This document shows, one piece after another, positions 1-10,790 of a stretch of 12,160 bases of DNA (within the stretch, counting starts at the first letter, position 1; each line of letters opens with the position of its first letter). The position numbers were made by a program, and so were the translations under genes. This DNA is from a virus (Duplodnaviria > Heunggongvirae > Uroviricota > Caudoviricetes). The notes under the pieces were generated by a model. That model worked only from the letters and a program-made list of their open reading frames with translations, ran no database searches and had not been told where the DNA came from. The stretch lies in IMG/VR virus record IMGVR_UViG_2728369554_000008, positions 1-12,160 of that record; one strand, 5' to 3'.

Positions 1-339
1 TTATAATTTGTTACTGTGCCACTCAAGGGCAATATCTTTGAAGGTGTTGTTTAACTGCGTTTCCCGGGCAATCTTTTCCTCTCGCTTCACTTCCATCAGA
101 TCGATTCCCCCAGAGATACCTCTTTTAGCTTCTTCAAGTTTTGCAGGAGCATCAGCTAAGGTGACCTCAGGATACACACCTAGTGCTAACAGCTTCTCTT
201 TACCAGCTACACGATACTTGAGACGCCAATATTCTCCTCCACCAGGTTTTACCAGGAGGTACAGACCACCACCATCAGCCAACTTGTAAGCCTTCTCTTT
301 TGGCTTGGCAGTGTCTATTTGACGGGCATTGAGTTTCAC
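1..339 (-). CDS. P4-type tyrosine integrase, N-terminal arm-type DNA-binding domain only (112 aa; probably a truncated remnant)
   Basis: Minus-strand ORF starting at GTG 337-339 with GGAG about 9 nt upstream; the complement of positions 1-3 is TAA. Translation MKLNARQIDTAKPKEKAYKLADGGGLYLLVKPGGGEYWRLKYR...EWHSNKL matches the conserved N-terminus of P4-family integrases, which are normally about 400 aa, so the catalytic domain is missing from this frame. Confidence 0.7.
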   Translation of the reverse strand: MKLNARQIDTAKPKEKAYKLADGGGLYLLVKPGGGEYWRLKYRVAGKEKLLALGVYPEVTLADAPAKLEEAKRGISGGIDLMEVKREEKIARETQLNNTFKDIALEWHSNKL

Positions 340-493
340 TTGGGGGTATCTCCACTAAACTGAACAGCAAATCCCCTCAATTGCTTGTAGAGTTTGGGGT
401 ACTTAAATAGACGTCAAAAGACTAAAAGGGGCATTAATATACTGATTATAAGAGGTTTTTAAATACTTGAGTAGACTTGGGGAGACGTTAGAA

Positions 494-537
494 TGGTGCG
501 ATAATAGGAGTCGAACCTACGACCTTCGCATTACGAA
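494..537 (-). other. tRNA 3'-half remnant (tRNA-Thr(CGU)-like); putative attachment-site direct repeat, not a complete tRNA gene
   Basis: Reverse complement of 494-537 reads TTCGTAA-TGCGA-AGGTC-GTAGG-TTCGACT-CCTAT-TATCGC-A-CCA: anticodon loop with CGU, variable loop, T-arm with GGTTCGAnTCC, acceptor 3' strand and CCA. Sequence upstream of the anticodon loop (538-570) has no D-arm or 5' acceptor strand, and the acceptor strand is one nt short of canonical length. Confidence 0.6.
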
Positions 538-898
538 TTATAAGAATCCGCTTCTAATTCAAAGCATTACCCCATCAACACTGCGCTCACACGTCCCACC
601 ACATCAAAACATGTAAAGCCTTGCAAGCCATTGCGAGGCCTTATGTGTCTCAGTTTTGTCCCACCTTGTATTACGACTTGCATAGCCAATGAAGATAAAC
701 GTGACGACAAACGGCGCAGCAGTCTTCTTTTCCTTCATACTTTCCCCACCCAGCATGCATACCTTTATGCCATAACTGAAGTTTATGTCTGTTATGAGCG
801 AGGAGCGGAAGTCCGCAATTGTTCTTGCAACTAGGGCAGCTAAAAGACATGGCAGGCAAATGTCTACATGTAGGATACACCTGCTATCATAAAGAATC

Positions 899-1678
899 TT
901 AGTCCTGAAGCATTTTAACTTTCTTCTCATGCTTTTTATATTCGCCATTTATCCATTCAGGTTCTTCCCGAATAGCTGATCGCATACAGTGTGTTGGGAT
1001 ATCATTCCAGAAAGCTGTAATCGCATCTGCAAACTCTATAAACTGTGTTTCTGTAACCTCAAGTTGCTCATGACGTAGACTAAATCTATAGCCTCCTGGA
1101 ATATTGATATCCTGATAATACTCAGGATGCGCGACGGAAAGCTCCCGATGGGCATGGCCATCACCGTGCTTATAAACATTGACTACTTGGCGACAGGCAT
1201 CGATTTTTTCGTAATAAGCCTTGCCGGTGATATCCATCCCAACCCATTCTAGAATTTCAATTAGCCTTGGGAAGCCGATGTCCCAGATCATCGATGTTAC
1301 GGGTTTAGAGTCGAGCCAATGACTGAATTCACGGATACACTTTTCTCGAAGTTCCTTATCGAACTGGTGAAACATTCCTGCTGTCAGAGCAAGTGAAACC
1401 GTATTTTTCATATCACTGAGGGCAATCCAATGTGAAATTCCTTCATCATAAGCCTGTTCCCAGATAGCCCCCTCGTCGTCATAATCGGGGTCAAAACGCT
1501 TACCGGCGGCCTCATAGTAATCTTTTTCTTTCTGCCGAGCTTCAGCTTCAAGATCAGAATCGCTAAACTGCGAAAATAAACGTTTTCTGGCTTCAGAAAC
1601 ATAAAAATTGTGTTTGTCGAGGAAGTAAGCCCGATCAATGGTTGCAAAATAAAAAAGTGAAAAATCTTTTTCGCTCAT
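899..1678 (-). CDS. Hypothetical acidic protein, about 259 aa, function unknown (accessory cargo)
   Basis: ORF track gives 899-1756. The start is placed at the internal ATG (1676-1678) because GAGGGAG lies 6 nt upstream; the protein then begins MSEKDFSLFYF. It is rich in D/E, has an HGDGHAHRE segment, and matches no structural-phage motif I recognise. A hand count of line 1201-1260 gives 24/60 G+C. Confidence 0.7.
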   Translation of the reverse strand: MSEKDFSLFYFATIDRAYFLDKHNFYVSEARKRLFSQFSDSDLEAEARQKEKDYYEAAGKRFDPDYDDEGAIWEQAYDEGISHWIALSDMKNTVSLALTAGMFHQFDKELREKCIREFSHWLDSKPVTSMIWDIGFPRLIEILEWVGMDITGKAYYEKIDACRQVVNVYKHGDGHAHRELSVAHPEYYQDINIPGGYRFSLRHEQLEVTETQFIEFADAITAFWNDIPTHCMRSAIREEPEWINGEYKKHEKKVKMLQD

Positions 1679-2007
1679 GGGGATCTCCCTCGTTTCGTCA
1701 GTTCTACAAGCCCTTGGAAGTAGGCTGCTAATAAAGAAAAGATTACATTTGAACAACTGTGCAAGATAGCAGTACGCCTAAAGGTAGTGCAAGTATCCCA
1801 ACTAAGGTAACGATGCGTTTTCAAATATATGACTTAACGCTCGCGATATCCGCTTCTGGCACGAGGCGGACAGAACATGTGGACATGACGTCAGCTCTAA
1901 GCGAGGAGCTGATGCTAGCGGGGTAGGTTCAGTACAATCATAGGAGAGATCCAAAGTGTGCAGACACTGACTAAATTAAAGAAAATAGCATCTACGCTAT
2001 ATGGATA

Positions 2008-2928
2008 TTAATAATGTCTATGACGAATATCATTATACGCAGCCTCGGAAAGTTCGAATACCCGATCCAATCCGGAATGGGGTAATTCCACAACCAATCC
2101 CCGCTGAATAAGTTTATCGATCTGCATTAAAGCTATTTTATCTACAATAGATCGAGATAACTTAGGCGTTGCACCCAATAATACAGCTTTATATACTTCC
2201 ATAATTCTTACAATACTAGGCTCCCGATTACTATGCCTTAATTTAATAGCGCGAGTGAAACTAGGAAGCGAAAACTGTCGTCCTGACATGTTAAGTTCAA
2301 CATGTCCATAGAACATGTTAAATAGAATCCTTCGAAGTCCTTCATCAGATGATAAATAATCTATTAATTCTTCTTGTCTCTTTTCTTGAATCCAAGTTCT
2401 AATAAAGAGCCATCCTGATAATAACGATACACATAATAGATAGTATTGCGAATCAGGGAGCTGTAGCCAAGGTCCAATGATTGGGTTATCTTTAGCCGTA
2501 TTGGGAAACGTAAAAAAGAAAGCGCTTAGCGTCGCAAATACTCCTGACCCCAATCGAGGGAGAAATGCACGGGATCGTGTATCACTCCGAACTTCTGACT
2601 TTATTAATGAAGGCGTCAGACTAACAGTCTGAGTTCCTGTCGCAGTAATCACTTTAACCAAATCCATCACTTGTGACATGGGTATCAACTGTTTGTCATT
2701 TTCATCCGTAGATTTCTCAATAGACTGATTATCAATGAATTCTTTTGCTGAATTAAGGTGTTGCCATAGATTTTTTGACTCATCATCAATAAAAATACCA
2801 CTAGTATTGTCTGGATGTATTGATGCCATTTTTCTGACTATTGCCTGGCGTAACCCATTTGGGTCATTTTCCATAACATTAGAAAACTTAAAATATGCAG
2901 CAATTTCTTTATTATTTTTCCAGTCCAT
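2008..2928 (-). CDS. Hypothetical protein with two central hydrophobic segments, about 306 aa, very AT-rich (accessory cargo); start uncertain (2928 or 3003)
   Basis: ORF 2008-3003 in the track. No Shine-Dalgarno precedes the first ATG at 3003; the ATG at 2926-2928 (MDWKNNK) follows an AT-rich promoter-like stretch. Hydrophobic segments LGSGVFATLSAFFFTF and YYLLCVSLLSGWLFI. A hand count of line 2101-2160 gives 19/60 G+C. Confidence 0.65.
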   Translation of the reverse strand: MDWKNNKEIAAYFKFSNVMENDPNGLRQAIVRKMASIHPDNTSGIFIDDESKNLWQHLNSAKEFIDNQSIEKSTDENDKQLIPMSQVMDLVKVITATGTQTVSLTPSLIKSEVRSDTRSRAFLPRLGSGVFATLSAFFFTFPNTAKDNPIIGPWLQLPDSQYYLLCVSLLSGWLFIRTWIQEKRQEELIDYLSSDEGLRRILFNMFYGHVELNMSGRQFSLPSFTRAIKLRHSNREPSIVRIMEVYKAVLLGATPKLSRSIVDKIALMQIDKLIQRGLVVELPHSGLDRVFELSEAAYNDIRHRHY

Positions 2929-3472
2929 AGTAATTCTGCCCAATGAAGTAAAATATAAAATTTTATTTTTTCGTTTAGGTTGAGGTTTAATTAACAAAAG
3001 CATTAATGCTAAATCAAACGATAGTTCGCAATGACAATATAAACGTTTTCAGTGAGTTAAGCAATACTAGGAAATTATGAGACAGATTACGTCGCCTCCA
3101 CCATAATGATTAACGAACCGTACTTTTTGCAAAGTCCGCATCTGGCACATAGCAGACCAGAGACACTGGCGTAAAGCCATGGAGGATCGGTGGGAGGAGG
3201 TAAAAATCCTCTCATGCAAAAAATACGCAAAATCGATAACAGTTGGAAATCATTCAATACTCGCACTATCGAAAGTTCACCAGCCAACCGCAGCGCGTTC
3301 TTGCATACGACGTGGCTGCGGTTTCAACTCCGTCCCCCACCAATCATGATTGGGCAGTACCAGTACAGCACTAGTAAAAACTGGAAATAAGCAGTCTCAG
3401 CAAAATACCGGCCAGACGGTGAGAAGACAAAAAAGATACGCAAAGTAGCCGCGGCCCTTAGTGACATGAAAT

Positions 3473-3492
3473 CCCGCTATACGGGCTTTTTT
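3473..3492 (+). terminator. Candidate intrinsic terminator or attenuator hairpin upstream of the 3568 gene
   Basis: CCCG-CTATA-CGGG stem-loop followed directly by CTTTTTTGT on the plus strand. The stem is short (4 GC pairs), so function is uncertain. Confidence 0.3.
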
Positions 3493-3567
3493 GTATCTGC
3501 ACACGATTGATTATTAGGTCCGTATAGCTAATAGTGGTCTTAACCTACATATAGAATCAGAGACTTT

Positions 3568-4263
3568 ATGAAAAAGGAAATACTCAAGGCTCTTTGCCCT
3601 ACATGCGGTGGGTTACGTAACTGCACTGTGCATGGGAAGCTAACCACTAGCTGGGAGGATTCCCAATATCCAGTTTATGGGTACCATTACCATCACCTAC
3701 TCCAATGCAATGGCTGTGATACTGTCTTCTATCACCACAACGAACACTTCAGTGAGCATACTACCCACGAATATCGTGATGGTGAATTTGTAGAAACGCC
3801 TATAGATATGATCACTACCTATCCTGCCGCTGAAACATTTCAAGCTCCGATATGGTTATCCAAGCTTGAATCAGTTGATCGTCAGCTCTTTCAAATATTT
3901 AATGAAATGTATTCTTCATATACTTCTGACCATTTCATCCTTTCGTCCATCGGTTTACGGACGATTTTTGATCGAACTGCTGAACTGTTACAAATTCACC
4001 CCGGTTTGCCGCTTGGTGAAAAAGTTGAAAAATTAAAACAAGATGGAGTCATAGGCGACACTGAGGCATGCGTTATATCTTCTGTAATTGATGCAGGAAA
4101 CGCCGCCGCACATCGCAGTTGGAGCCCGAATAAAAGTGAGTTCGAACAAATGCTAGAAGCTATAGAAAGTTTTGTCCAAAGAACTATCTTGGGCAAAAAA
4201 TCACTTGAACATATAACCAAACAACTCCCACCTCGGGTTACAAGACCTAAAAATAGTGCATAA
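3568..4263 (+). CDS. Zinc-ribbon plus DUF4145-like domain protein, 231 aa (candidate accessory/defence gene)
   Basis: N-terminus has CPTC (x33) CNGC, a four-cysteine zinc-ribbon pattern. The C-terminus LGEKVEKLKQDGVIGDTEACVISSVIDAGNAAAHRSWSPNKSEFEQMLEAIESFV fits the remembered DUF4145 pattern (L-x-x-K-I-x-x-L, then G-N-x-A-A-H). A hand count of line 3901-3960 gives 22/60 G+C. It is convergent with the invertase gene. Confidence 0.8.
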   Translation: MKKEILKALCPTCGGLRNCTVHGKLTTSWEDSQYPVYGYHYHHLLQCNGCDTVFYHHNEHFSEHTTHEYRDGEFVETPIDMITTYPAAETFQAPIWLSKLESVDRQLFQIFNEMYSSYTSDHFILSSIGLRTIFDRTAELLQIHPGLPLGEKVEKLKQDGVIGDTEACVISSVIDAGNAAAHRSWSPNKSEFEQMLEAIESFVQRTILGKKSLEHITKQLPPRVTRPKNSA

Positions 4264-4289
4264 TCCGCGATCATCAATGTGGCGTAAGG

Positions 4290-4847
4290 TTATGGTTTAC
4301 TTGCTACAGGGAATTTTTTATACACCGTTGAAATACCCAGATCATAAATCAGTGCGACTTGCTGCTGATATATTCCCGATTCAATCAACCTGCCAGCCTG
4401 CTCCCATTGTTCTACTGTCAGCTTTGGCTTTCGCCCACCATTCCTCCCTTCTTGTCGTGCTGCGGCAAAGCCCGCCCTAGTACGTTCGACAATAAGCTCT
4501 CGCTCCATTTCAGCCAGGGCACCCATCACATGAAAGAAAAAGCGCCCCATTGGTGTGCTGGTATCAATAGCATCCGTCAGGCTGCGAAAATTAACGCCAC
4601 GTTCGCGCAACTCCTCCACCAGCACGACAAGATGCCGCATACTGCGCCCCAGTCGGTCCAGTTTCCAGACTACCAGAGTGTCACCTGCTGATAATGTTCT
4701 GAGCAGTTTTTTCAGTCCCGGTCGGTCGGACTTAGTGCCGCTGATCTTATCTTCAAAAATCAGCTCACATCCTGCACACTCCAGCGCATTACGCTGCAAT
4801 TCCGTATTCTGGTCATTTGTTGATACGCGGACATAGCCAATAAGCAT
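4290..4847 (-). CDS. pin: Site-specific DNA invertase, serine recombinase of the Pin/Gin/Hin/Cin family
   Basis: Translation MLIGYVRVSTNDQNT...GDTLVVWKLDRLGRSM...MGRFFFHVMGALAEMERELIVERT with a C-terminal helix-turn-helix: the catalytic Ser in YVRVST and the hallmark motifs of DNA invertases. The start is set at the ATG (4845-4847) preceded by AGGGGA; the track's extension to 4892 is not supported by family alignment. Confidence 0.95.
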   Translation of the reverse strand: MLIGYVRVSTNDQNTELQRNALECAGCELIFEDKISGTKSDRPGLKKLLRTLSAGDTLVVWKLDRLGRSMRHLVVLVEELRERGVNFRSLTDAIDTSTPMGRFFFHVMGALAEMERELIVERTRAGFAAARQEGRNGGRKPKLTVEQWEQAGRLIESGIYQQQVALIYDLGISTVYKKFPVASKP

Positions 4848-4874
4848 GAGCATTCCCCTGAGTAAAAACCGGGG

Positions 4875-5414
4875 ATGATGCCAGTTAGCCATAATCTCTG
4901 CATTTTCTTAAACGTTGGTTTGGGAGAAGGCTCTGCATTACCTGTTGGTGTCCCTGTTCCGTGGCCTTCAGCCACACCGCCAACAGGCTGGCTGAAATGC
5001 AATGGTGCCGCTTTTTCTGCTGAAGAATACCCGGAACTGACAAAGGCTTATCCGACAAATAAATTGCCTGATTTACGTGGTGAGTTTATTCGTGGCTGGG
5101 ATGACGGGCGGGGGATTGATACAGGTCGCTCTATTTTAAGTATTCAGGGGTATGCAACGGAGGATCATGCTCATGGATTACCGTCAAGATCCACGATTGT
5201 GACTGATGCAACGATTAATTTCTATTTTGATGAAAACTGGGTAAATAGTGGCACTGACATTATCAAAAGAGGAAACACAAACGATGCCGGATTACCAGCA
5301 CCGGATTATGGAACCTTTAAAACATATAAACAATCAGTGGCTGGTTTAGGTACCGCAGCCTCAGAAACGCGTCCGCGTAATATTGCATTTAACTATATCG
5401 TAAGGGCAGCCTGA
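4875..5414 (+). CDS. Alternative tail-fibre C-terminal cassette (Sv'-type), currently in the unexpressed orientation; functional coding begins at the crossover site near 4917
   Basis: Translation across the site reads NVGLGEG, matching NLGLGEA in the constant part of the tail-fibre gene at 6812-6837. Downstream motifs WLKCNGAAFSAEEYPELTKAYPTNKLPDLRGEFIRGWDDGRG are typical of Mu/P1/e14-type fibre tips. There is no plausible independent start; the ATG at 4875 lies in the invertase upstream region. Confidence 0.8.
   Translation: MMPVSHNLCIFLNVGLGEGSALPVGVPVPWPSATPPTGWLKCNGAAFSAEEYPELTKAYPTNKLPDLRGEFIRGWDDGRGIDTGRSILSIQGYATEDHAHGLPSRSTIVTDATINFYFDENWVNSGTDIIKRGNTNDAGLPAPDYGTFKTYKQSVAGLGTAASETRPRNIAFNYIVRAA
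4903..4928. repeat. Invertase crossover site 1 (hix/gix-like, 12-2-12)
   Basis: Plus strand TTTTCTTAAACG-TT-GGTTTGGGAGAA. Its reverse complement shares TTCTCCCAAACCAA with site 2, and it lies about 56 bp upstream of the invertase start. Confidence 0.8.
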
Positions 5415-6016
5415 TGCATAAAGCAATATTAAATAGTGAGCTTATTGCAACAAAGGCAGGGGATGTTACCGTTTATAACTACGATGGTGAAACACTGGAA
5501 TATATTTCCACGTCAACTGAATATCTTGCTGTGGGTGTCGGTATTCCGGCATGTTCCTGTCTTGATGCACCTGGCATACATAAGGTTGGTTATGCAATCT
5601 GTCGTTCTGTGAATTTAAATTCATGGGAATATGTGCCAGACCATCGCGGTGAAATCGTCTATAGCACCGAAACAGGAGAATCAAAAGAAATCACAGCTCC
5701 GGGTGATTACCCTGAAAATACAACCACTATCGCCCCTTTATCTCCATACGATAAATGGGATGGTGAGAAATGGGTGACCGATACTGAGGCACAGCATAGC
5801 GCCGCAGTCGAAGCGGCAGAAGCACAACGCCAGTCACTGATTGATGCTGCAATGGCTTCCATTAGTCTGATTCAGCTGAAATTACAAGCCGGACGGAAAC
5901 TGACGCAGGCAGAAACAACCCGACTTAACGCCGTGCTGGATTACATTGACGCGGTGACGGCAACAGATACCAGCACCGCGCCGGATGTCATCTGGCCTGA
6001 ACTGCCGGAGGCGTAG
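5414..6016 (+). CDS. Tail-fibre assembly protein (Tfa/U'-type), partner of the silent fibre cassette
   Basis: Its ATG overlaps the TGA of the preceding cassette (TGATG). The C-terminus LDYIDAVTATDTSTAPDVIWPELPEA parallels the C-terminus of the opposite-strand Tfa, as in paired U/U' chaperones. Confidence 0.85.
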   Translation: MHKAILNSELIATKAGDVTVYNYDGETLEYISTSTEYLAVGVGIPACSCLDAPGIHKVGYAICRSVNLNSWEYVPDHRGEIVYSTETGESKEITAPGDYPENTTTIAPLSPYDKWDGEKWVTDTEAQHSAAVEAAEAQRQSLIDAAMASISLIQLKLQAGRKLTQAETTRLNAVLDYIDAVTATDTSTAPDVIWPELPEA

Positions 6017-6431
6017 GCCATTCAATATCTGGAGCACTGGAGATATCCACCAGTTCCAGTGCGTCCAGGTAATCCAGCCACAAATTATATTGCGCCAGTT
6101 CCTCGCCTTTCAGACGACCAATAGCGGCTTTACCGGGCCATTGTTTACTGTTCATGTATTCGTTGGCCTGGTTAATTAGTAGCTGTCTTTCTGATTCAGT
6201 AATTTCAATAAGCTCTTCATGCGTGGGTGGAGGAATATCTGCCCACGCAGGCAGCCCATCATCTCCGGCAATACGGATTTTTCCTTGTGGCGGTTCAGCC
6301 ATAAACTCACTGATAATATTTTGATTTACTTCCTTAGCGTCTGATAAATCCCATCCCTCTGATTTATATTTATCAATCATATCCACAGGGAAAAAAGCAT
6401 TATGCCTTGCGCTATAAACATATTCGTTCAT
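5988..6431 (-). CDS. Tail-fibre assembly protein (Tfa/U-type), partner of the expressed fibre
   Basis: Start is set at the ATG (6429-6431, MNEYVY) preceded by AGGGTGA; the track begins at an upstream GTG (6440). C-terminus LWLDYLDALELVDISSAPDIEWPTPP. Its 3' end overlaps the convergent Tfa gene by about 29 bp. Confidence 0.85.
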   Translation of the reverse strand: MNEYVYSARHNAFFPVDMIDKYKSEGWDLSDAKEVNQNIISEFMAEPPQGKIRIAGDDGLPAWADIPPPTHEELIEITESERQLLINQANEYMNSKQWPGKAAIGRLKGEELAQYNLWLDYLDALELVDISSAPDIEWPTPPAVQAR

Positions 6432-6451
6432 ATAAATCACCCTGAATAAAA

Positions 6452-7114
6452 TTACTCACCAACAGCCCACCAACTGTAATTCATCGATACCGTGTCGCTG
6501 GTTGATGACGTTCTGTAAGCAGAATTAAAGCCGGTTAACGTTGGGTCTTCTGCAGTCATCACGAACCCTCGCCCAGCGCCTAAAGGCGCACCGCCATCAC
6601 CAGAATGAGTAAGCATGGCGCAGTCCGCTTTTTTGGGGAAAGGGATGCTGAATGTAATTCTCATTGTTTGCGTCGATAATTTCGGCGTAACCGCACCACG
6701 ACCATATTGCAGGATTTTCCCGTTGGGTAATTTCATCCATCCATCACCACTGGCAAAAGAGGCCATGTCCGGTATCTGATTTTCCCCTGTTCCAACCCCC
6801 CGTTTCGCCGCTTCTCCCAAACCAAGGTTTTCGAGAGCCGTTGGTACTGTGCCATCCGATTTGATATCACCAAACGGATTCTTGCGGCTTAACAGCAGCG
6901 CACGAAGCGCTGTAAGCAGCTGGTCATGCCGCCCCTTCTCCAGGCTGGCACCGGATGCCTCCACCACGCTGCAAAGCTCCTCCTGCAACATGTCAAAGTA
7001 GTCATCATCCAGATCGGTGGCAGGCGTGCCGGTCTGGGGGTTACCACGGGTAAAACCGTTCTTACCCGCGCCGAACTTATCCTTCTGCGCGGTTTTCGTG
7101 TCTATACGATGCAT
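6452..7114 (-). CDS. Tail-fibre protein (constant N-terminal part fused to the currently expressed variable C-terminal part)
   Basis: N-terminus [67 protein letters not shown] is a conserved prophage tail-fibre N-terminal domain. Crossover site 2 lies inside the gene at 6812-6837, so residues after ALENLGLGE are exchangeable. Confidence 0.9.
6812..6837. repeat. Invertase crossover site 2 (hix/gix-like, 12-2-12), inside the tail-fibre gene
   Basis: Plus strand TTCTCCCAAACC-AA-GGTTTTCGAGAG, an imperfect palindrome with an AA core. It is inverted relative to site 1 (plus-strand core TT) and resembles hixL as I remember it (TTCTTGAAAACC-AA-GGTTTTTGATAA). Confidence 0.8.
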
Positions 7115-7702: not shown

Positions 7703-8751
7703 GAAATCGTCCCCAGTACCGCCAGTTCATTTTTTGCAATGGAGATATTGTCTGCCGGTGCAAGCAACTGATGGCTGTATTCCCCGTTCGCACCGGAAAT
7801 CGCCTCACTGATACGCGACACCTTCAGTTCTCCCTGCGGATAACCATCACGCAGCAGGAACGAACGCAACTCGGCGGTGATGGCAGCCCGTATTTCCGGT
7901 GTGTCCGGCGTCACGCGGATATGAAAATCCACTTTATGCGCCACCGGCCTGAATACATACAAATCAGAGCCTGCCACCGGGGCCAGTGGCTCAATGTGTT
8001 GTCTTGCCGCCGTTTCCGTTGATTCTTCCGGAATGGGATTAATCAGGTCACTGCCGGCAATCATCACACCGACAGTCCCCGTTCCCATCCAGTGGCGGTA
8101 TGTCCATGCGCGGGTAATGCCGGGCACTTCTTTAGCCCAGACAACATAGTCCCCGTCAGCCCCGCCCTGAGGAGTCCAGTAATACCGCTCAATGACGCGG
8201 GCGCGCCACGTTTCCAGATCTTCAGTATCAAATCCACCTGTCAGAGTGTCTGCCACGCCGGAAGACGGCAGACCATTAACCGGCGTGACCAGGATTAATG
8301 ACGTACCGTCGTCAGCGTTACCGACCGTGCCTGCACTTGAGCAGGCGATCGGCACGCGCAGGACACCACCGGCGCTGGTTGCATCGGCAGTTGCCGTGTA
8401 CTGAACCAGGTCATCGCGCTGAATAACACTCCCGGCGGTCACCTTCAGGCCATCGCTGACGCCTTCCCAGCGCATATACCCGCTGGCAGTCGTGGCCCCC
8501 TTGCGCGGACACCGTTTCATCGCAGCATGTCGCGCCAGCCAGGACTCATCGCACAGGTCAGGCAGCATGTTCATTGCCAGATAATCGATGTACCCGTAAA
8601 CCGTATGCAGCGCCGCCGCATACACCTTTGCCCGCACGTCTTCATCCATGCGCCGGAGCGTGTCGCTGACGTCCAGCCTGGCGAATAAATCGTTACGGAG
8701 CATACTGATATTTTCTGCCAGCGTCGGGCGCTGAAATTCACTGTCCGCCAT
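7693..8751 (-). CDS. Baseplate J-like protein (Mu gp47 homologue), 352 aa
   Basis: Size and position in the operon match Mu gp47. Its 3' end overlaps the gp48-like start by 10 nt. Confidence 0.85.
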
Positions 8752-9166
8752 GCGTTATCGCACTCCACAGATCATCAAAAGAAATCATTACCGGTCCGTC
8801 ACGACGCCAGAGAGTGATACTGTTACCCAGTTCATTAATCCCGGTGCGGCGGATATCCAGATCAATACGGGACACCACGCCGTCATCAATCATCCATTGC
8901 AGGCATTCGCGGATATACCCCCTTACCGTCAGCACCAGTTGATTGGTCAGTTTGCTGCGCTGAAGCAGCCACAGTCGGGAGCCGTAACGGTCATTCTGTA
9001 CCGCAGGCCAGGTATCCCCCCACCATCCCATCGGGACTTCGGCGTTGTCATCAGGCTCCGCCCGCCGCCAGGTAAACAGGGAAATCACCACAGCGCGGGT
9101 CAGCGGATCCAGCTGTGCGCTGGCGCAGGTGCGTTTACCGTTCACCGTCAGCCACAGTTCCATCAT
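8738..9166 (-). CDS. Mu gp46-like baseplate protein (Phage GP46 family), 142 aa
   Basis: Small protein between the gp45-like and gp47-like genes, overlapping both neighbours, as in Mu. Confidence 0.8.
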   Translation of the reverse strand: MMELWLTVNGKRTCASAQLDPLTRAVVISLFTWRRAEPDDNAEVPMGWWGDTWPAVQNDRYGSRLWLLQRSKLTNQLVLTVRGYIRECLQWMIDDGVVSRIDLDIRRTGINELGNSITLWRRDGPVMISFDDLWSAITHGGQ

Positions 9167-9711
9167 GCCTCCATCGCTTTATCAGGTTTGTCGGTGTTAC
9201 TGCCCTGACCGTTCTCTCTGTGACGATGCCCGTTATAGGCAAGCCGCATCGCTGACATGGTGGTACCGCCGGAGTCGCACAGGTCTTTCACCTGTCCGGT
9301 CACTTCCAGGTCCATTTCAAAACGTGCTCTGGGCGCATTGCGAAACGTGATCGTTTTACCTGCACCGTCCACCACAATCCCCTCCCGGGTCAGCGTCACG
9401 GACTGCCCCTGATCGTCATAGACCGCCACCTCACCCGTCTGCAGCCCTTTCAGGCGGTAGCGCCGGTCCGACACCGTAACAACCACCGCATGAGAACGGT
9501 CACCATCCGGAAACAACACCACCGCTTCCGCACCGCTGTTTGCCCTTGCGGTAAAACCGTAGGGTTCAAGATGTTCAACCCCGGCTTTGGGTTCACCGGC
9601 AATCAGGGACACATCCACGGTCTGACATTTCGTGGCGGCACTGATGCTTTTCACCACTGCCCGCCCAATCAGCCCGAGGAGTTGTCGCTGCATGGCTTCA
9701 ATCGTCCTCAT
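9163..9711 (-). CDS. Baseplate assembly/spike protein V-like (Mu gp45 homologue), 182 aa
   Basis: Position and size match Mu gp45. Stop and start overlap the neighbours (ATGA-type coupling). Confidence 0.8.
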   Translation of the reverse strand: MRTIEAMQRQLLGLIGRAVVKSISAATKCQTVDVSLIAGEPKAGVEHLEPYGFTARANSGAEAVVLFPDGDRSHAVVVTVSDRRYRLKGLQTGEVAVYDDQGQSVTLTREGIVVDGAGKTITFRNAPRARFEMDLEVTGQVKDLCDSGGTTMSAMRLAYNGHRHRENGQGSNTDKPDKAMEA

Positions 9712-10790
9712 CAGAACGGGTCCTCCTGTACTCTGGCTTTTTTCTTTTTCCGCGCGCCGGGGGCTTCGGGTTCAGGCAGATAAGCATCAGGCGGGCCGAC
9801 ACGGATTTCCGTCAGGGTGCCGTTCTGGTCCTGAGTAAACGTGACTTCCGAGACAAGCAGTTCGGTATTGTCGAAACCACAGACAGGATCGAAGACAATC
9901 ACCCGCTGGTTGGGCTGCCACAGCGTACCGTTACCCTGTCGCCAGCCCTGCACCACATAGGTGGTTTCATCCGTCCGCGCCGCCCGTTGCCGGGCTTCAA
10001 AGTCAGCACGCGCAATACAGCCTGCCCCCGTAGCCTGCCCTGTCTGCCTGATATACATCGGACGGTAACGGGCAATAAATGCGTCTTCTGTGCGGGCCCG
10101 CAGCGCGGTGGTGGTGGCCTCACCGAAATCATCGTCGTTTCCGGCACGCTGCCCCGCCACCTGGTAAACAGAAAACCGCTCCCGGATACTCTTCTCCGTA
10201 TCGCAGGAAAGGATGTTTTCCCCAAGTACCAGCGCGGTATGTGCCCGCGTTGAGCCAATACCGCCAATCACCAGCCTGCCGTGCGGGTCGTCGTAAGCCA
10301 GCGCCTGCTGCTGACCGAGTATTTTGTTGATCACCTCAATCACCGTTTCACCGTGATCAGGCTGGACATCAGGAATAACACCCGACGGCGCACCGCTGTT
10401 CACCACCTCAATGCCGAAAGGCGCAGCAAGCGCCTGCGCAATCTGAACCAGCGATCGTCCGTTAAACTGTGTCGGTTCGGCTGCACAGTCAATCAGGTCA
10501 GCGGTCAGACTACGCCCAGCAATACCGGTGCTGACCGAACGGGCATCATAACGAACGGGAGTCGCCTCCACCCAGCCGGTGATCACCAGCTCATCACCAA
10601 TCAGCACTTCCACTTTTGAACCGTTTTTAATACGCGGCTGAAGCGTGGTGATACCCTCATCTCCCGGCCACTGGCGGGTGATCTCCACACTGAAATCCCG
10701 CGTCAGCCGTTCAATACCGGCACCGATGCGCACCGATGTCCAGCCATTCCACTCCCGGCCATTTACCCGTAGCGTGACGTTATCATTCAT
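9711..10790 (-). CDS. Mu gp44(P)-like baseplate hub / phage late control D-family protein, 359 aa
   Basis: Position between the gp43-like and gp45-like genes, with a lysine-rich C-terminus (ARKKKKARVQEDPF). High G+C and translationally coupled to neighbours. Confidence 0.8.
   Translation of the reverse strand: MNDNVTLRVNGREWNGWTSVRIGAGIERLTRDFSVEITRQWPGDEGITTLQPRIKNGSKVEVLIGDELVITGWVEATPVRYDARSVSTGIAGRSLTADLIDCAAEPTQFNGRSLVQIAQALAAPFGIEVVNSGAPSGVIPDVQPDHGETVIEVINKILGQQQALAYDDPHGRLVIGGIGSTRAHTALVLGENILSCDTEKSIRERFSVYQVAGQRAGNDDDFGEATTTALRARTEDAFIARYRPMYIRQTGQATGAGCIARADFEARQRAARTDETTYVVQGWRQGNGTLWQPNQRVIVFDPVCGFDNTELLVSEVTFTQDQNGTLTEIRVGPPDAYLPEPEAPGARKKKKARVQEDPF

What the first reader, a model, noticed from the sequence alone, without database searches (positions are those of the whole stretch)
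3568..4263. Zinc-ribbon plus DUF4145-like single-gene candidate next to the invertase
The N-terminus carries a four-cysteine zinc-ribbon pattern (CPTC ... CNGC). The C-terminal 110 residues fit the DUF4145 pattern as I remember it, including the G-N-x-A-A-H core. That domain has no assigned function; from memory it also occurs fused to or beside restriction-type nucleases. The gene is low in G+C, has its own upstream region with a hairpin plus T-run 76 bp before the start, and sits alone on the plus strand, consistent with an independently acquired moron.
Basis: partly seen in the sequence, partly recalled or inferred. Interest (0 to 1): 0.7.

Follow-up and report, generated by a model that had tools for sequence, protein, structure and literature searches.

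The report
Prophage zinc-finger HEPN defence candidate
A small stand-alone gene at the very end of an E. coli prophage encodes a zinc-binding sensor-like domain fused to a HEPN (RNase-type) domain. It has the same layout as the recently solved anti-phage protein RAZR but belongs to a separate, untested family that lacks RAZR's catalytic arginine.

Summary
Window 3568-4263 (+) is a real 231-aa gene with a Cys4 site (C10/C13/C47/C50). It has a significant DUF4145 match (39 bits, cut-off 23.1) containing GNAAAH.

DUF4145 is no longer functionless: it is a divergent HEPN RNase domain. The E. coli defence protein RAZR (PD-T7-4; Nature 2026) has this same layout of an N-terminal zinc domain plus C-terminal DUF4145.

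The gene is an AT-rich cargo gene in the slot beyond the tail-fibre invertase, where e14 carries mcrA. Relatives sit at the ends of several prophage types, on plasmids including Y. pestis pMT1, and beside Gabija, AbiTii, type I restriction and the validated DS-38 gene.

It is not a demonstrable RAZR member. No PADLOC model hits it or 40 relatives. The position equivalent to RAZR's catalytic R146 is T/V/I/A/S in all 167 sequences, whereas H182, R183, W185, R131 and K152 are (near-)invariant.

Best reading: an uncharacterised RAZR-like single-gene abortive-infection sensor/effector (family = phrog_1305). This is a new variant of a known kind, and its function is inferred, not shown.

The parts
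3568..4263 (+). Complete gene, 231 aa (identical to RefSeq WP_001514810.1, 'DUF4145 domain-containing protein')
   Evidence: ORF list; identical annotated gene in E. coli genomes; full-length match to phrog_1305, E=5e-43
3580..3825 (+). N-terminal zinc-pinned beta-sheet domain (residues 5-86), the putative sensor
3595..3606 (+). First zinc knuckle, C10-P-T-C13
   Evidence: Translation; Cys conserved in 154-155 of 167 sequences, the rest mostly gaps
3706..3717 (+). Second zinc knuckle, C47-N-G-C50
   Evidence: Translation; Cys conserved in 163-164 of 167 sequences
3856..4224 (+). C-terminal DUF4145 / HEPN helical domain (residues 97-219), the putative RNase effector
3958..3960 (+). Invariant R131 (motif G-x-R-T-x-F-D-R), a candidate active-site or structural arginine
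   Evidence: 167/167 conserved
4096..4128 (+). Signature motif G177-N-A-A-A-H182-R183-x-W185-x-P187, carrying the HEPN histidine
   Evidence: Translation; H182 and W185 167/167, R183 163/167, G177 164/167, P187 165/167. The position 8 residues before H (I174, nt 4087-4089) is T/V/I/A/S and never Arg
3218..3567 (+). Upstream non-coding block that travels with the gene in other genomes; expected to hold its promoter
   Evidence: Colinear at 96-97% identity with L001 (from 3218) and L002 (from 3127) although the sequence further left differs; no promoter reaches the scan threshold; no Rfam family
3473..3492 (.). Weak hairpin plus T-run (possible bidirectional terminator insulating the gene from upstream transcription)
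   Evidence: Sequence; reported only as a - strand site by the scanner; -9.6 kcal/mol with flanks

Best explanation
The gene is a prophage-borne, single-protein anti-phage (abortive-infection type) sensor-effector built like RAZR/PD-T7-4. A variable N-terminal zinc-stabilised beta domain would recognise a protein of an infecting phage. A C-terminal DUF4145/HEPN domain would dimerise or oligomerise and cut RNA to stop translation, protecting the lysogen population and so the prophage.

Shown here: the gene and its four-Cys site, the DUF4145 match, the HEPN fold of the C-terminal half, the invariant residues, the cargo position, the AT-rich composition, and the association with mobile elements and defence genes.

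Inferred: that it defends, that the N-domain is the sensor, that the HEPN domain is catalytically active (probably through H182 with R183 and/or R131 replacing the missing canonical Arg), and that the target is RNA.
For: Architecture: a Cys4 domain plus DUF4145 in one ~230-aa protein. This is the layout described for RAZR, an experimentally proven abortive-infection RNase (PMC13017515; 'Zn finger-HEPN', PMC9519451 Table S1).

Conservation: H182, R131, K152 and W185 are invariant and R183, G177 and P187 near-invariant across 167 sequences, the pattern expected of an active site. The N-domain is more variable than the HEPN half, as reported for RAZR's sensor domain.

Cargo behaviour:
- The gene sits beyond the invertase at the prophage end, where e14 has mcrA and a sister prophage has an acyltransferase.
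- Homologues are the last gene of P2-like, lambda-like and P22-like prophages, next to gtr, DinI and UmuD-like morons.
- They are inserted between tail genes S and V in Pseudomonas prophages.
- They occur on 46 IMG/VR contigs and in 69 plasmid records, including Y. pestis pMT1.

Defence neighbours:
- DS-38, 364/366 identical to the validated protein (PMC13092281).
- AbiTii.
- Mrr plus a second paralogue.
- Gabija-like and reverse-transcriptase genes.
- Type I REase x3, MADS x2, PDC-S02, LmuB, HNH and MTase among the immediate neighbours in 71 species.

No conserved partner gene was found, so it is a single-gene system. Gene G+C is below its flanks in 56 of 80 loci, median -5.8 points. Only 34 of 5426 complete E. 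coli genomes carry it.
Against: - There is no experimental result for this family. No paper mentions WP_001514810 or phrog_1305.
- No PADLOC model hits the protein or 40 relatives.
- The arginine equivalent to RAZR's essential R146 (8 residues before the His) is absent from the whole family, so RNase activity is not assured.
- The N-domain shows no detectable similarity to classical zinc ribbons or to any solved structure.
- There is no tblastn or blastn match in 50,697 sequenced phage records.
- No promoter was predicted.
- PHROGs labels the family 'DNA binding protein'.
- The neighbourhood evidence is descriptive; no enrichment statistic against a background was computed.
Confidence: 0.55

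Rival explanations
1. The HEPN domain is catalytically inert. The protein is a nucleic-acid-binding regulator or adaptor of the prophage, as the PHROG label 'DNA binding protein' implies, for example controlling lysogeny, the invertase or tail-fibre expression.
Against: The gene is absent from sister prophages with the same backbone. It occurs in unrelated prophages, plasmids and chromosomal defence islands with no invertase, so it cannot be a core regulator. His182, R183 and W185 are invariant, as in an active site. There is no HTH or other known DNA-binding domain. The PHROG label has no traceable experimental basis.
Confidence: 0.15
2. It is a toxin or addiction-type module that stabilises the mobile element (post-segregational killing or stress-induced growth arrest) rather than an infection sensor.
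Against: There is no MNT or other conserved partner gene next to it in the window or among 134 neighbours from 71 species. A lone constitutively active toxin could not be maintained.
Confidence: 0.1
3. It is an anti-defence decoy: a phage-encoded, arginine-less ZF-HEPN protein that co-assembles with host RAZR-like HEPN proteins and poisons their composite active site.
For: HEPN active sites are composite across a dimer, and RAZR works as a higher oligomer (PMC13017515). This family lacks the catalytic Arg and is phage-borne.
Against: It sits at a lysogenic-conversion slot rather than among early genes. It also occurs in chromosomal islands beside restriction, Gabija and MADS genes. It has strong conservation of His182/R183, which a decoy would not need. 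It shows no detectable sequence similarity to PD-T7-4 models, so co-assembly is unlikely.
Confidence: 0.05

Closest known systems
RAZR (PD-T7-4), ring-activated zinc-finger RNase of E. coli UMB1727 (Vassallo 2022, PMC9519451; Zhang 2026, PMC13017515)
   Same: Both are single ~220-230-aa proteins with an N-terminal Cys4 zinc domain, a linker, and a C-terminal DUF4145 that is a divergent HEPN fold with a conserved His. Both are carried on integrase-associated mobile DNA in E. coli. In both, the zinc domain is the more variable half.
   Different: No PADLOC defence model hits this family. The zinc domain here is ~82 aa of long beta-strands with no classical zinc-ribbon match, against ~65 aa related to RPB9 in RAZR. 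The residue equivalent to the essential R146 is T/V/I/A/S. The family has its own invariant H-R-x-W-x-P, R131 and K152. Phenotype, trigger and oligomeric state are unknown. RAZR's sequence (RRL46918.1) could not be obtained, so no direct alignment was made.
Pfam DUF4145 (PF13643), HEPN superfamily (Anantharaman et al. 2013, PMC3710099)
   Same: Significant HMM match and HEPN fold. That paper lists zinc-ribbon fusions and dsDNA-virus occurrence for DUF4145.
   Different: This family belongs to the minority without the canonical Arg of the R-x(n)-H motif (the paper gives the motif as ~80% conserved in DUF4145).
DS-38 (WP_001313577.1), validated HEPN + zinc-finger defence protein of E. coli (DefensePredictor, PMC13092281)
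   Same: A HEPN domain plus Cys-rich zinc modules in one protein. A 99%-identical copy lies 480 bp upstream of this gene in strain DETEC-P61.
   Different: The domain order is opposite (HEPN N-terminal with a canonical R-N-x3-H, then multiple C-terminal zinc fingers). It is 366 aa, and profile comparison finds no homology.
McrA of cryptic prophage e14 (E. coli K-12)
   Same: It occupies the same genomic slot: the last cargo gene beyond the Pin-type invertase and invertible tail-fibre segment of an e14/SfV-type prophage.
   Different: It is an unrelated protein (HNH type IV restriction enzyme), co-directional with pin rather than convergent.
BxaP and Ishtar1 (other DUF4145-containing defence proteins; PMC10799925, bioRxiv 10.64898/2026.07.06.735840)
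   Same: They use a DUF4145/HEPN domain in experimentally supported anti-phage (BxaP) or anti-plasmid (Ishtar) defence.
   Different: In both, DUF4145 is N-terminal and fused to other C-terminal domains (HEAT-like, or a beta/alpha domain). Neither has a zinc domain.

Membership tests
Pfam DUF4145 (PF13643) / HEPN superfamily | HMM match above the curated gathering score | tested here: met
   39 bits against 23.1, E=8.8e-10, residues 115-199 on profile positions 4-87 of 88; ten longer relatives score 31-48 bits
Pfam DUF4145 (PF13643) / HEPN superfamily | All-alpha HEPN bundle fold | tested here: met
Pfam DUF4145 (PF13643) / HEPN superfamily | Catalytic R-x(4-7)-H motif: Arg and His on one helix | tested here: not met
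   His182 is invariant, but H-5 is Gly (164/167) and H-8 is T/V/I/A/S (0/167 Arg). R183 at H+1 (163/167) and R131 (167/167) are the only (near-)invariant arginines
RAZR / PD-T7-4 | Single protein with an N-terminal Cys4 zinc domain and a C-terminal DUF4145/HEPN domain | tested here: met
   RAZR description in PMC13017515
RAZR / PD-T7-4 | Detectable sequence homology to PD-T7-4 (defence-system HMM, or the solved chains 9Y9C/9Y6U) | tested here: not met
   PADLOC-DB v2.0.0 gives 0 hits for the protein (E<=0.1) and for 41 family members (E<=0.01). PDB sequence and profile searches find nothing. Caveat: I could not verify that the PD-T7-4 model and the RAZR chains are in these copies. PADLOC v2.0.0 does report another system of the same series, PD-T4-6 (PMC11811056)
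RAZR / PD-T7-4 | Zinc domain is a classical RPB9/TFIIS-type zinc ribbon of ~65 aa | tested here: inconclusive
RAZR / PD-T7-4 | Essential catalytic pair R146 / H154 (R-x7-H) | tested here: not met
   The His equivalent is present (H182). The Arg equivalent (I174) is never Arg in the family. Equivalence is inferred from Pfam profile coordinates, not from a direct alignment to RAZR
RAZR / PD-T7-4 | Anti-phage abortive-infection phenotype; activation by assembly around phage portal or Gp77 rings; non-specific ssRNA cleavage | not testable with these tools
   Needs plaque assays, escape mutants, cryo-EM and RNase assays
HEPN-MNT type II toxin-antitoxin | Adjacent minimal nucleotidyltransferase (MNT) antitoxin gene | tested here: not met
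   The neighbours in the window are an unassigned ORF and the invertase. No family is shared by more than 4 of 134 immediate neighbours in 71 species
DS-38 (HEPN + zinc fingers) | N-terminal HEPN with R-N-x3-H followed by C-terminal multi-zinc-finger array | tested here: not met
   Opposite domain order; hhalign probability 1.2%; DS-38 sequence from PMC13092281 Table S8
PHROG phrog_1305 | Full-length profile match | tested here: met
   E=5.3e-43, residues 2-225 on profile positions 11-224 of 226; 41/41 family members match only this PHROG

The most novel reading that the evidence does not exclude
phrog_1305 proteins are a second, mechanistically distinct class of zinc-finger-HEPN immune sensors. 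They would have a new zinc-pinned beta-sheet fold that recognises a different kind of phage trigger than RAZR's ring-shaped proteins. Their HEPN centre would be re-wired, with the canonical arginine replaced by an H-R-x-W-x-P / R131 / K152 constellation, giving either a different RNA target or chemistry or a non-nucleolytic output.
Probability: 0.3. Interest if true: 0.65.

Novelty: new variant of a known kind. Interest (0 to 1): 0.5.

Why it matters
If it defends, it adds a widespread single-gene immune sensor to the RAZR paradigm. The family counts 289 clusters at E<=1e-30 and 2708 at E<=1e-3. It spans Proteobacteria, Acidobacteriota, Bacteroidota and Chloroflexota, and is carried by prophages and plasmids including Y. 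pestis pMT1. Current defence-annotation tools miss it and phage annotation mislabels it 'DNA binding protein'. Its arginine-less but strongly conserved HEPN centre is a natural test of what a HEPN nuclease minimally needs. Its unusual zinc domain may reveal a new way of recognising phage proteins. It also illustrates that the slot beyond the tail-fibre invertase in e14/SfV-like prophages is a defence or conversion cargo site (mcrA, acyltransferase, this gene).

Tried and rejected
1. Identity with DS-38, the other validated E. coli 'HEPN + zinc finger' system: rejected. DS-38 is a different 366-aa protein with the reverse domain order. It turned out to be a neighbour of this gene in one strain.

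2. Obtaining RAZR for direct comparison failed.
- PDB sequence searches with the protein and two profiles found nothing.
- Supplementary tables give only the accession RRL46918.1.
- A second database search with the HEPN half at E<=10 reached only the same family plus one truncated relative.

3. Defence HMMs (PADLOC) and NCBIfam gave no hit.

4. Sequenced phage genomes gave no blastn or tblastn hit.

5. An R136-x7-H144 pair in the query looks like a HEPN motif, but it is not conserved in the wider family (position 144 is mostly Asp) and lies outside the motif region of the Pfam profile. Rejected as the active site.

6. A tRNA-like string at 3320-3342 was considered as an att site. ARAGORN finds no tRNA and the string is found in only 136 genomes, so this is not supported.

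7. Rfam: nothing in the window.

8. Foldseek on the full model gave only weak hits (E>0.01). The high-probability ones were HEPN proteins, and the actin-capping-protein hits have TM 0.15 and are noise.

Full report
**1. Observation**

Window 3568-4263 (+) is an intact 231-aa ORF. Its start matches that of its homologues.

- It carries C10-P-T-C13 and C47-N-G-C50.
- It matches Pfam DUF4145 over residues 115-199 at 39 bits, above the 23.1-bit curated cut-off.
- That match includes G177-N-A-A-A-H182.
- G+C is 41.7% (GC3 34.9%), against 57.3% for the adjacent baseplate genes.
- The hairpin plus T-run 76 nt upstream exists, but it has only four G-C pairs on the + strand. The scanner does not call it on that strand, and terminator-like sites are not above chance. 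No promoter reaches the scan threshold.

Only the 'own transcription unit' part is unproven.

**2. The setting**

The window joins two blocks.

- Positions 1-3326 are an AT-rich island: a truncated P4-type integrase and two unassigned ORFs. In another strain this island lies next to the vat island.
- From about 3127-3218 rightwards the sequence is the end of an e14/SfV-like prophage. It holds this gene, a Pin/Gin-type invertase (4290-4892, -), an invertible tail-fibre segment bounded by 20-nt inverted repeats (4910-4929 and 6811-6830), and then YmfQ, baseplate and tail genes.

The gene therefore lies outside the invertible segment. It is convergent with the invertase, in the last slot of the prophage.

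- In K-12's e14 that slot holds the restriction gene mcrA.
- In a sister prophage with the same left junction it holds an acyltransferase.
- In strain T309.Ta3 the same gene plus invertase follows int and dinI of a dusA-integrated prophage.

The gene is rare: 34 of 5426 complete E. coli genomes carry it.

**3. The protein**

An AlphaFold2 model (pLDDT 84) has two halves.

**4. The family**

A profile search of 1.84 billion representatives finds 2708 clusters at E<=1e-3, 1408 at E<=1e-10 and 289 at E<=1e-30. Nearly all of the best 150 match over the full length.

All 41 sampled members map to a single PHROG, phrog_1305, which is labelled 'DNA binding protein'.

Conservation across 167 sequences:

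| Residue(s) | Conservation |
|---|---|
| C10, C13, C47, C50 | conserved in 154-164 of 167; the rest mostly gaps |
| R131, K152, H182, W185 | invariant |
| G177, R183, P187, D135, E200 | near-invariant |

The N-domain is more variable than the HEPN half: 30% against 39% mean pairwise identity.

Sixteen members have N-terminal extensions. The ten scanned show only weak zinc-ribbon-like hits there.

**5. What is known about this architecture**

DUF4145 was placed in the HEPN superfamily in 2013, and zinc-ribbon fusions and viral occurrences were noted then (PMC3710099).

PD-T7-4 was recovered in a functional screen of E. coli DNA and annotated 'Zn finger-HEPN' (PMC9519451). It has since been renamed RAZR and characterised (PMC13017515):

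- An N-terminal Cys4 zinc domain senses ring-shaped phage proteins (portal, Gp77).
- Twenty-four copies assemble around the ring.
- The DUF4145/HEPN domain, with essential R146 and H154, cleaves ssRNA and aborts infection.
- The zinc domain sets specificity and is the most variable part.

Other DUF4145 proteins with defence phenotypes are BxaP and Ishtar1.

**6. Same as RAZR, or only like it?**

The layout, size, mobile-element habitat and variability pattern agree. Three tests do not.

- No PADLOC v2 model hits this protein or 40 relatives. That release does include another system of the same series, PD-T4-6, although I could not list its models.
- The Pfam profile coordinates put the HEPN motif at residues ~165-185. 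H182 is therefore the equivalent of RAZR's H154, and I174 the equivalent of R146. That position is T, V, I, A or S in all 167 sequences, and H-5 is Gly. Instead the family has an invariant or near-invariant H-R-x-W-x-P.
- The zinc domain is larger than RAZR's and has no detectable classical zinc-ribbon match.

The comparison is therefore indirect, and I do not file the gene as a RAZR member.

**7. Context evidence for defence**

Prophages and plasmids:

- Close homologues (63-70% identity) are the terminal gene of P2-like, lambda-like and P22-like prophages in Citrobacter and Enterobacter. They sit beside DinI, UmuD-like, gtr/glycosyltransferase and tail-fibre genes.
- In Pseudomonas the gene is inserted between tail genes S and V.
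- Forty-six IMG/VR contigs and 69 plasmid records carry relatives. These include Y. pestis pMT1 and conjugative Y. enterocolitica plasmids.

Defence neighbours:

- One copy lies next to an AbiTii protein.
- In Rahnella two paralogues flank an Mrr-type endonuclease beside an integrase.
- In Burkholderia the gene lies in an island with Gabija-like, reverse-transcriptase and kinase genes.
- In E. coli DETEC-P61 it lies 480 bp downstream of a 99%-identical copy of the validated defence gene DS-38.
- Among the immediate neighbours in 71 GTDB species are type I restriction enzymes (x3), MADS components (x2), PDC-S02, LmuB, HNH and methyltransferases.

No partner family recurs in more than four loci. 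The gene is more AT-rich than its flanks in 56 of 80 loci, by a median of 5.8 points.

This pattern is typical of mobile defence cargo. It is descriptive, however, not a statistical enrichment test.

**8. Mechanism proposed**

The proposal is a RAZR-like, single-polypeptide abortive-infection system.

- The zinc-pinned beta domain binds a protein of a superinfecting phage.
- Binding changes the oligomeric arrangement.
- HEPN domains pair to form a composite site centred on H182.
- RNA is cut and translation stops.

The fold, the invariant residues and the context are shown. Sensing, activity and target are inferred by analogy. Because the canonical Arg is missing, either R183 and/or R131 substitute for it (my preferred reading, given their invariance) or the domain is not a nuclease.

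Rival readings, with the evidence for and against each, are given in the Rival explanations section:

| Rival | Confidence |
|---|---|
| Regulator or nucleic-acid binder | 0.15 |
| Addiction toxin | 0.10 |
| Anti-defence decoy | 0.05 |

**9. Verdict**

The gene is best described as an uncharacterised, RAZR-like zinc-finger-HEPN cargo gene, and so a new variant of a known kind. Interest is moderate. The architecture now has a well-studied precedent. This large family, however, is missed by defence annotation, has a non-canonical HEPN centre and an unmatched sensor fold, and is easy to test.

Noticed in passing
window 4290-7114 (inverted repeats 4910-4929 and 6811-6830): A complete Pin/Gin-type tail-fibre inversion switch. 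It comprises the invertase (Resolvase+HTH_7, 4290-4892 -), 20-nt inverted repeats with the TTCTCCCAAACCAA core, and two alternative fibre C-termini (4875-5414 +, 6452-7114 -), each with its own tail-fibre assembly gene.
   Followed up: partly
window 1-3326: A separate AT-rich island (G+C 41%). It holds a truncated P4-type integrase (1-339 -, Arm DNA-binding domain only) and two unassigned ORFs: 899-1756 (-), which matches phrog_19541 of unknown function, and 2008-3003 (-), which has no hit in Pfam, PADLOC, PHROGs or NCBIfam. In strain CFE299 the same block follows the vat autotransporter island. These two ORFs are untested accessory or defence candidates.
   Followed up: partly
L002 (E. coli DETEC-P61) 7865-8965, 480 bp upstream of the DUF4145 gene: A gene annotated 'hsdR' is 364/366 identical to DS-38 (WP_001313577.1), an experimentally validated HEPN + zinc-finger defence protein. 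The RefSeq product name is misleading.
   Followed up: yes
L003 (E. coli CFE299) 9324-10688, equivalent to window ~3326-4900: A sister prophage with the same left junction carries an acyltransferase (a likely O-antigen modification moron) and non-invertible fibre genes in place of the DUF4145 gene plus invertase. The slot is therefore an exchangeable cargo site.
   Followed up: partly
window 3320-3342: The string GGTTTCAACTCCGTCCCCCACCA resembles a tRNA T-arm/acceptor 3' end and sits at the junction (3326) of the two sequence blocks. ARAGORN finds no tRNA, the string is unannotated, and it is present in only 136 E. coli genomes. Its origin is unexplained.
   Followed up: partly
L141 (Yersinia pestis Nepal516 pMT) 6001-6723: The plague plasmid pMT1 carries a 41%-identical homologue (WP_002224263.1). 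It is flanked by IS100, IS256 and IS1618 elements and lies about 5 kb from the phospholipase D (ymt) gene. Fifty-one Yersinia plasmid records carry family members.
   Followed up: partly
L012 (Rahnella) 3304-4050 and 8001-8764: Two paralogues of the family lie 4 kb apart in one integrase-associated island, with an Mrr-type endonuclease between them.
   Followed up: partly
L034-L049 (Sphingomonadales, about 12 genera): About 14 loci give the same tblastn match to the query (41% identity over residues 7-226). Most also share the same neighbours, including a 1404-aa ORF upstream and a 100-aa ORF downstream. This suggests one recently spreading mobile element.
   Followed up: no
P0078, P0105, P0108, P0164 and 12 other family members of 307-507 aa: About 10% of family representatives have 100-280-aa N-terminal extensions. 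Of the ten scanned with Pfam, four show weak Lar-like zinc-ribbon hits in the extension, possibly a duplicated or additional sensor module.
   Followed up: partly
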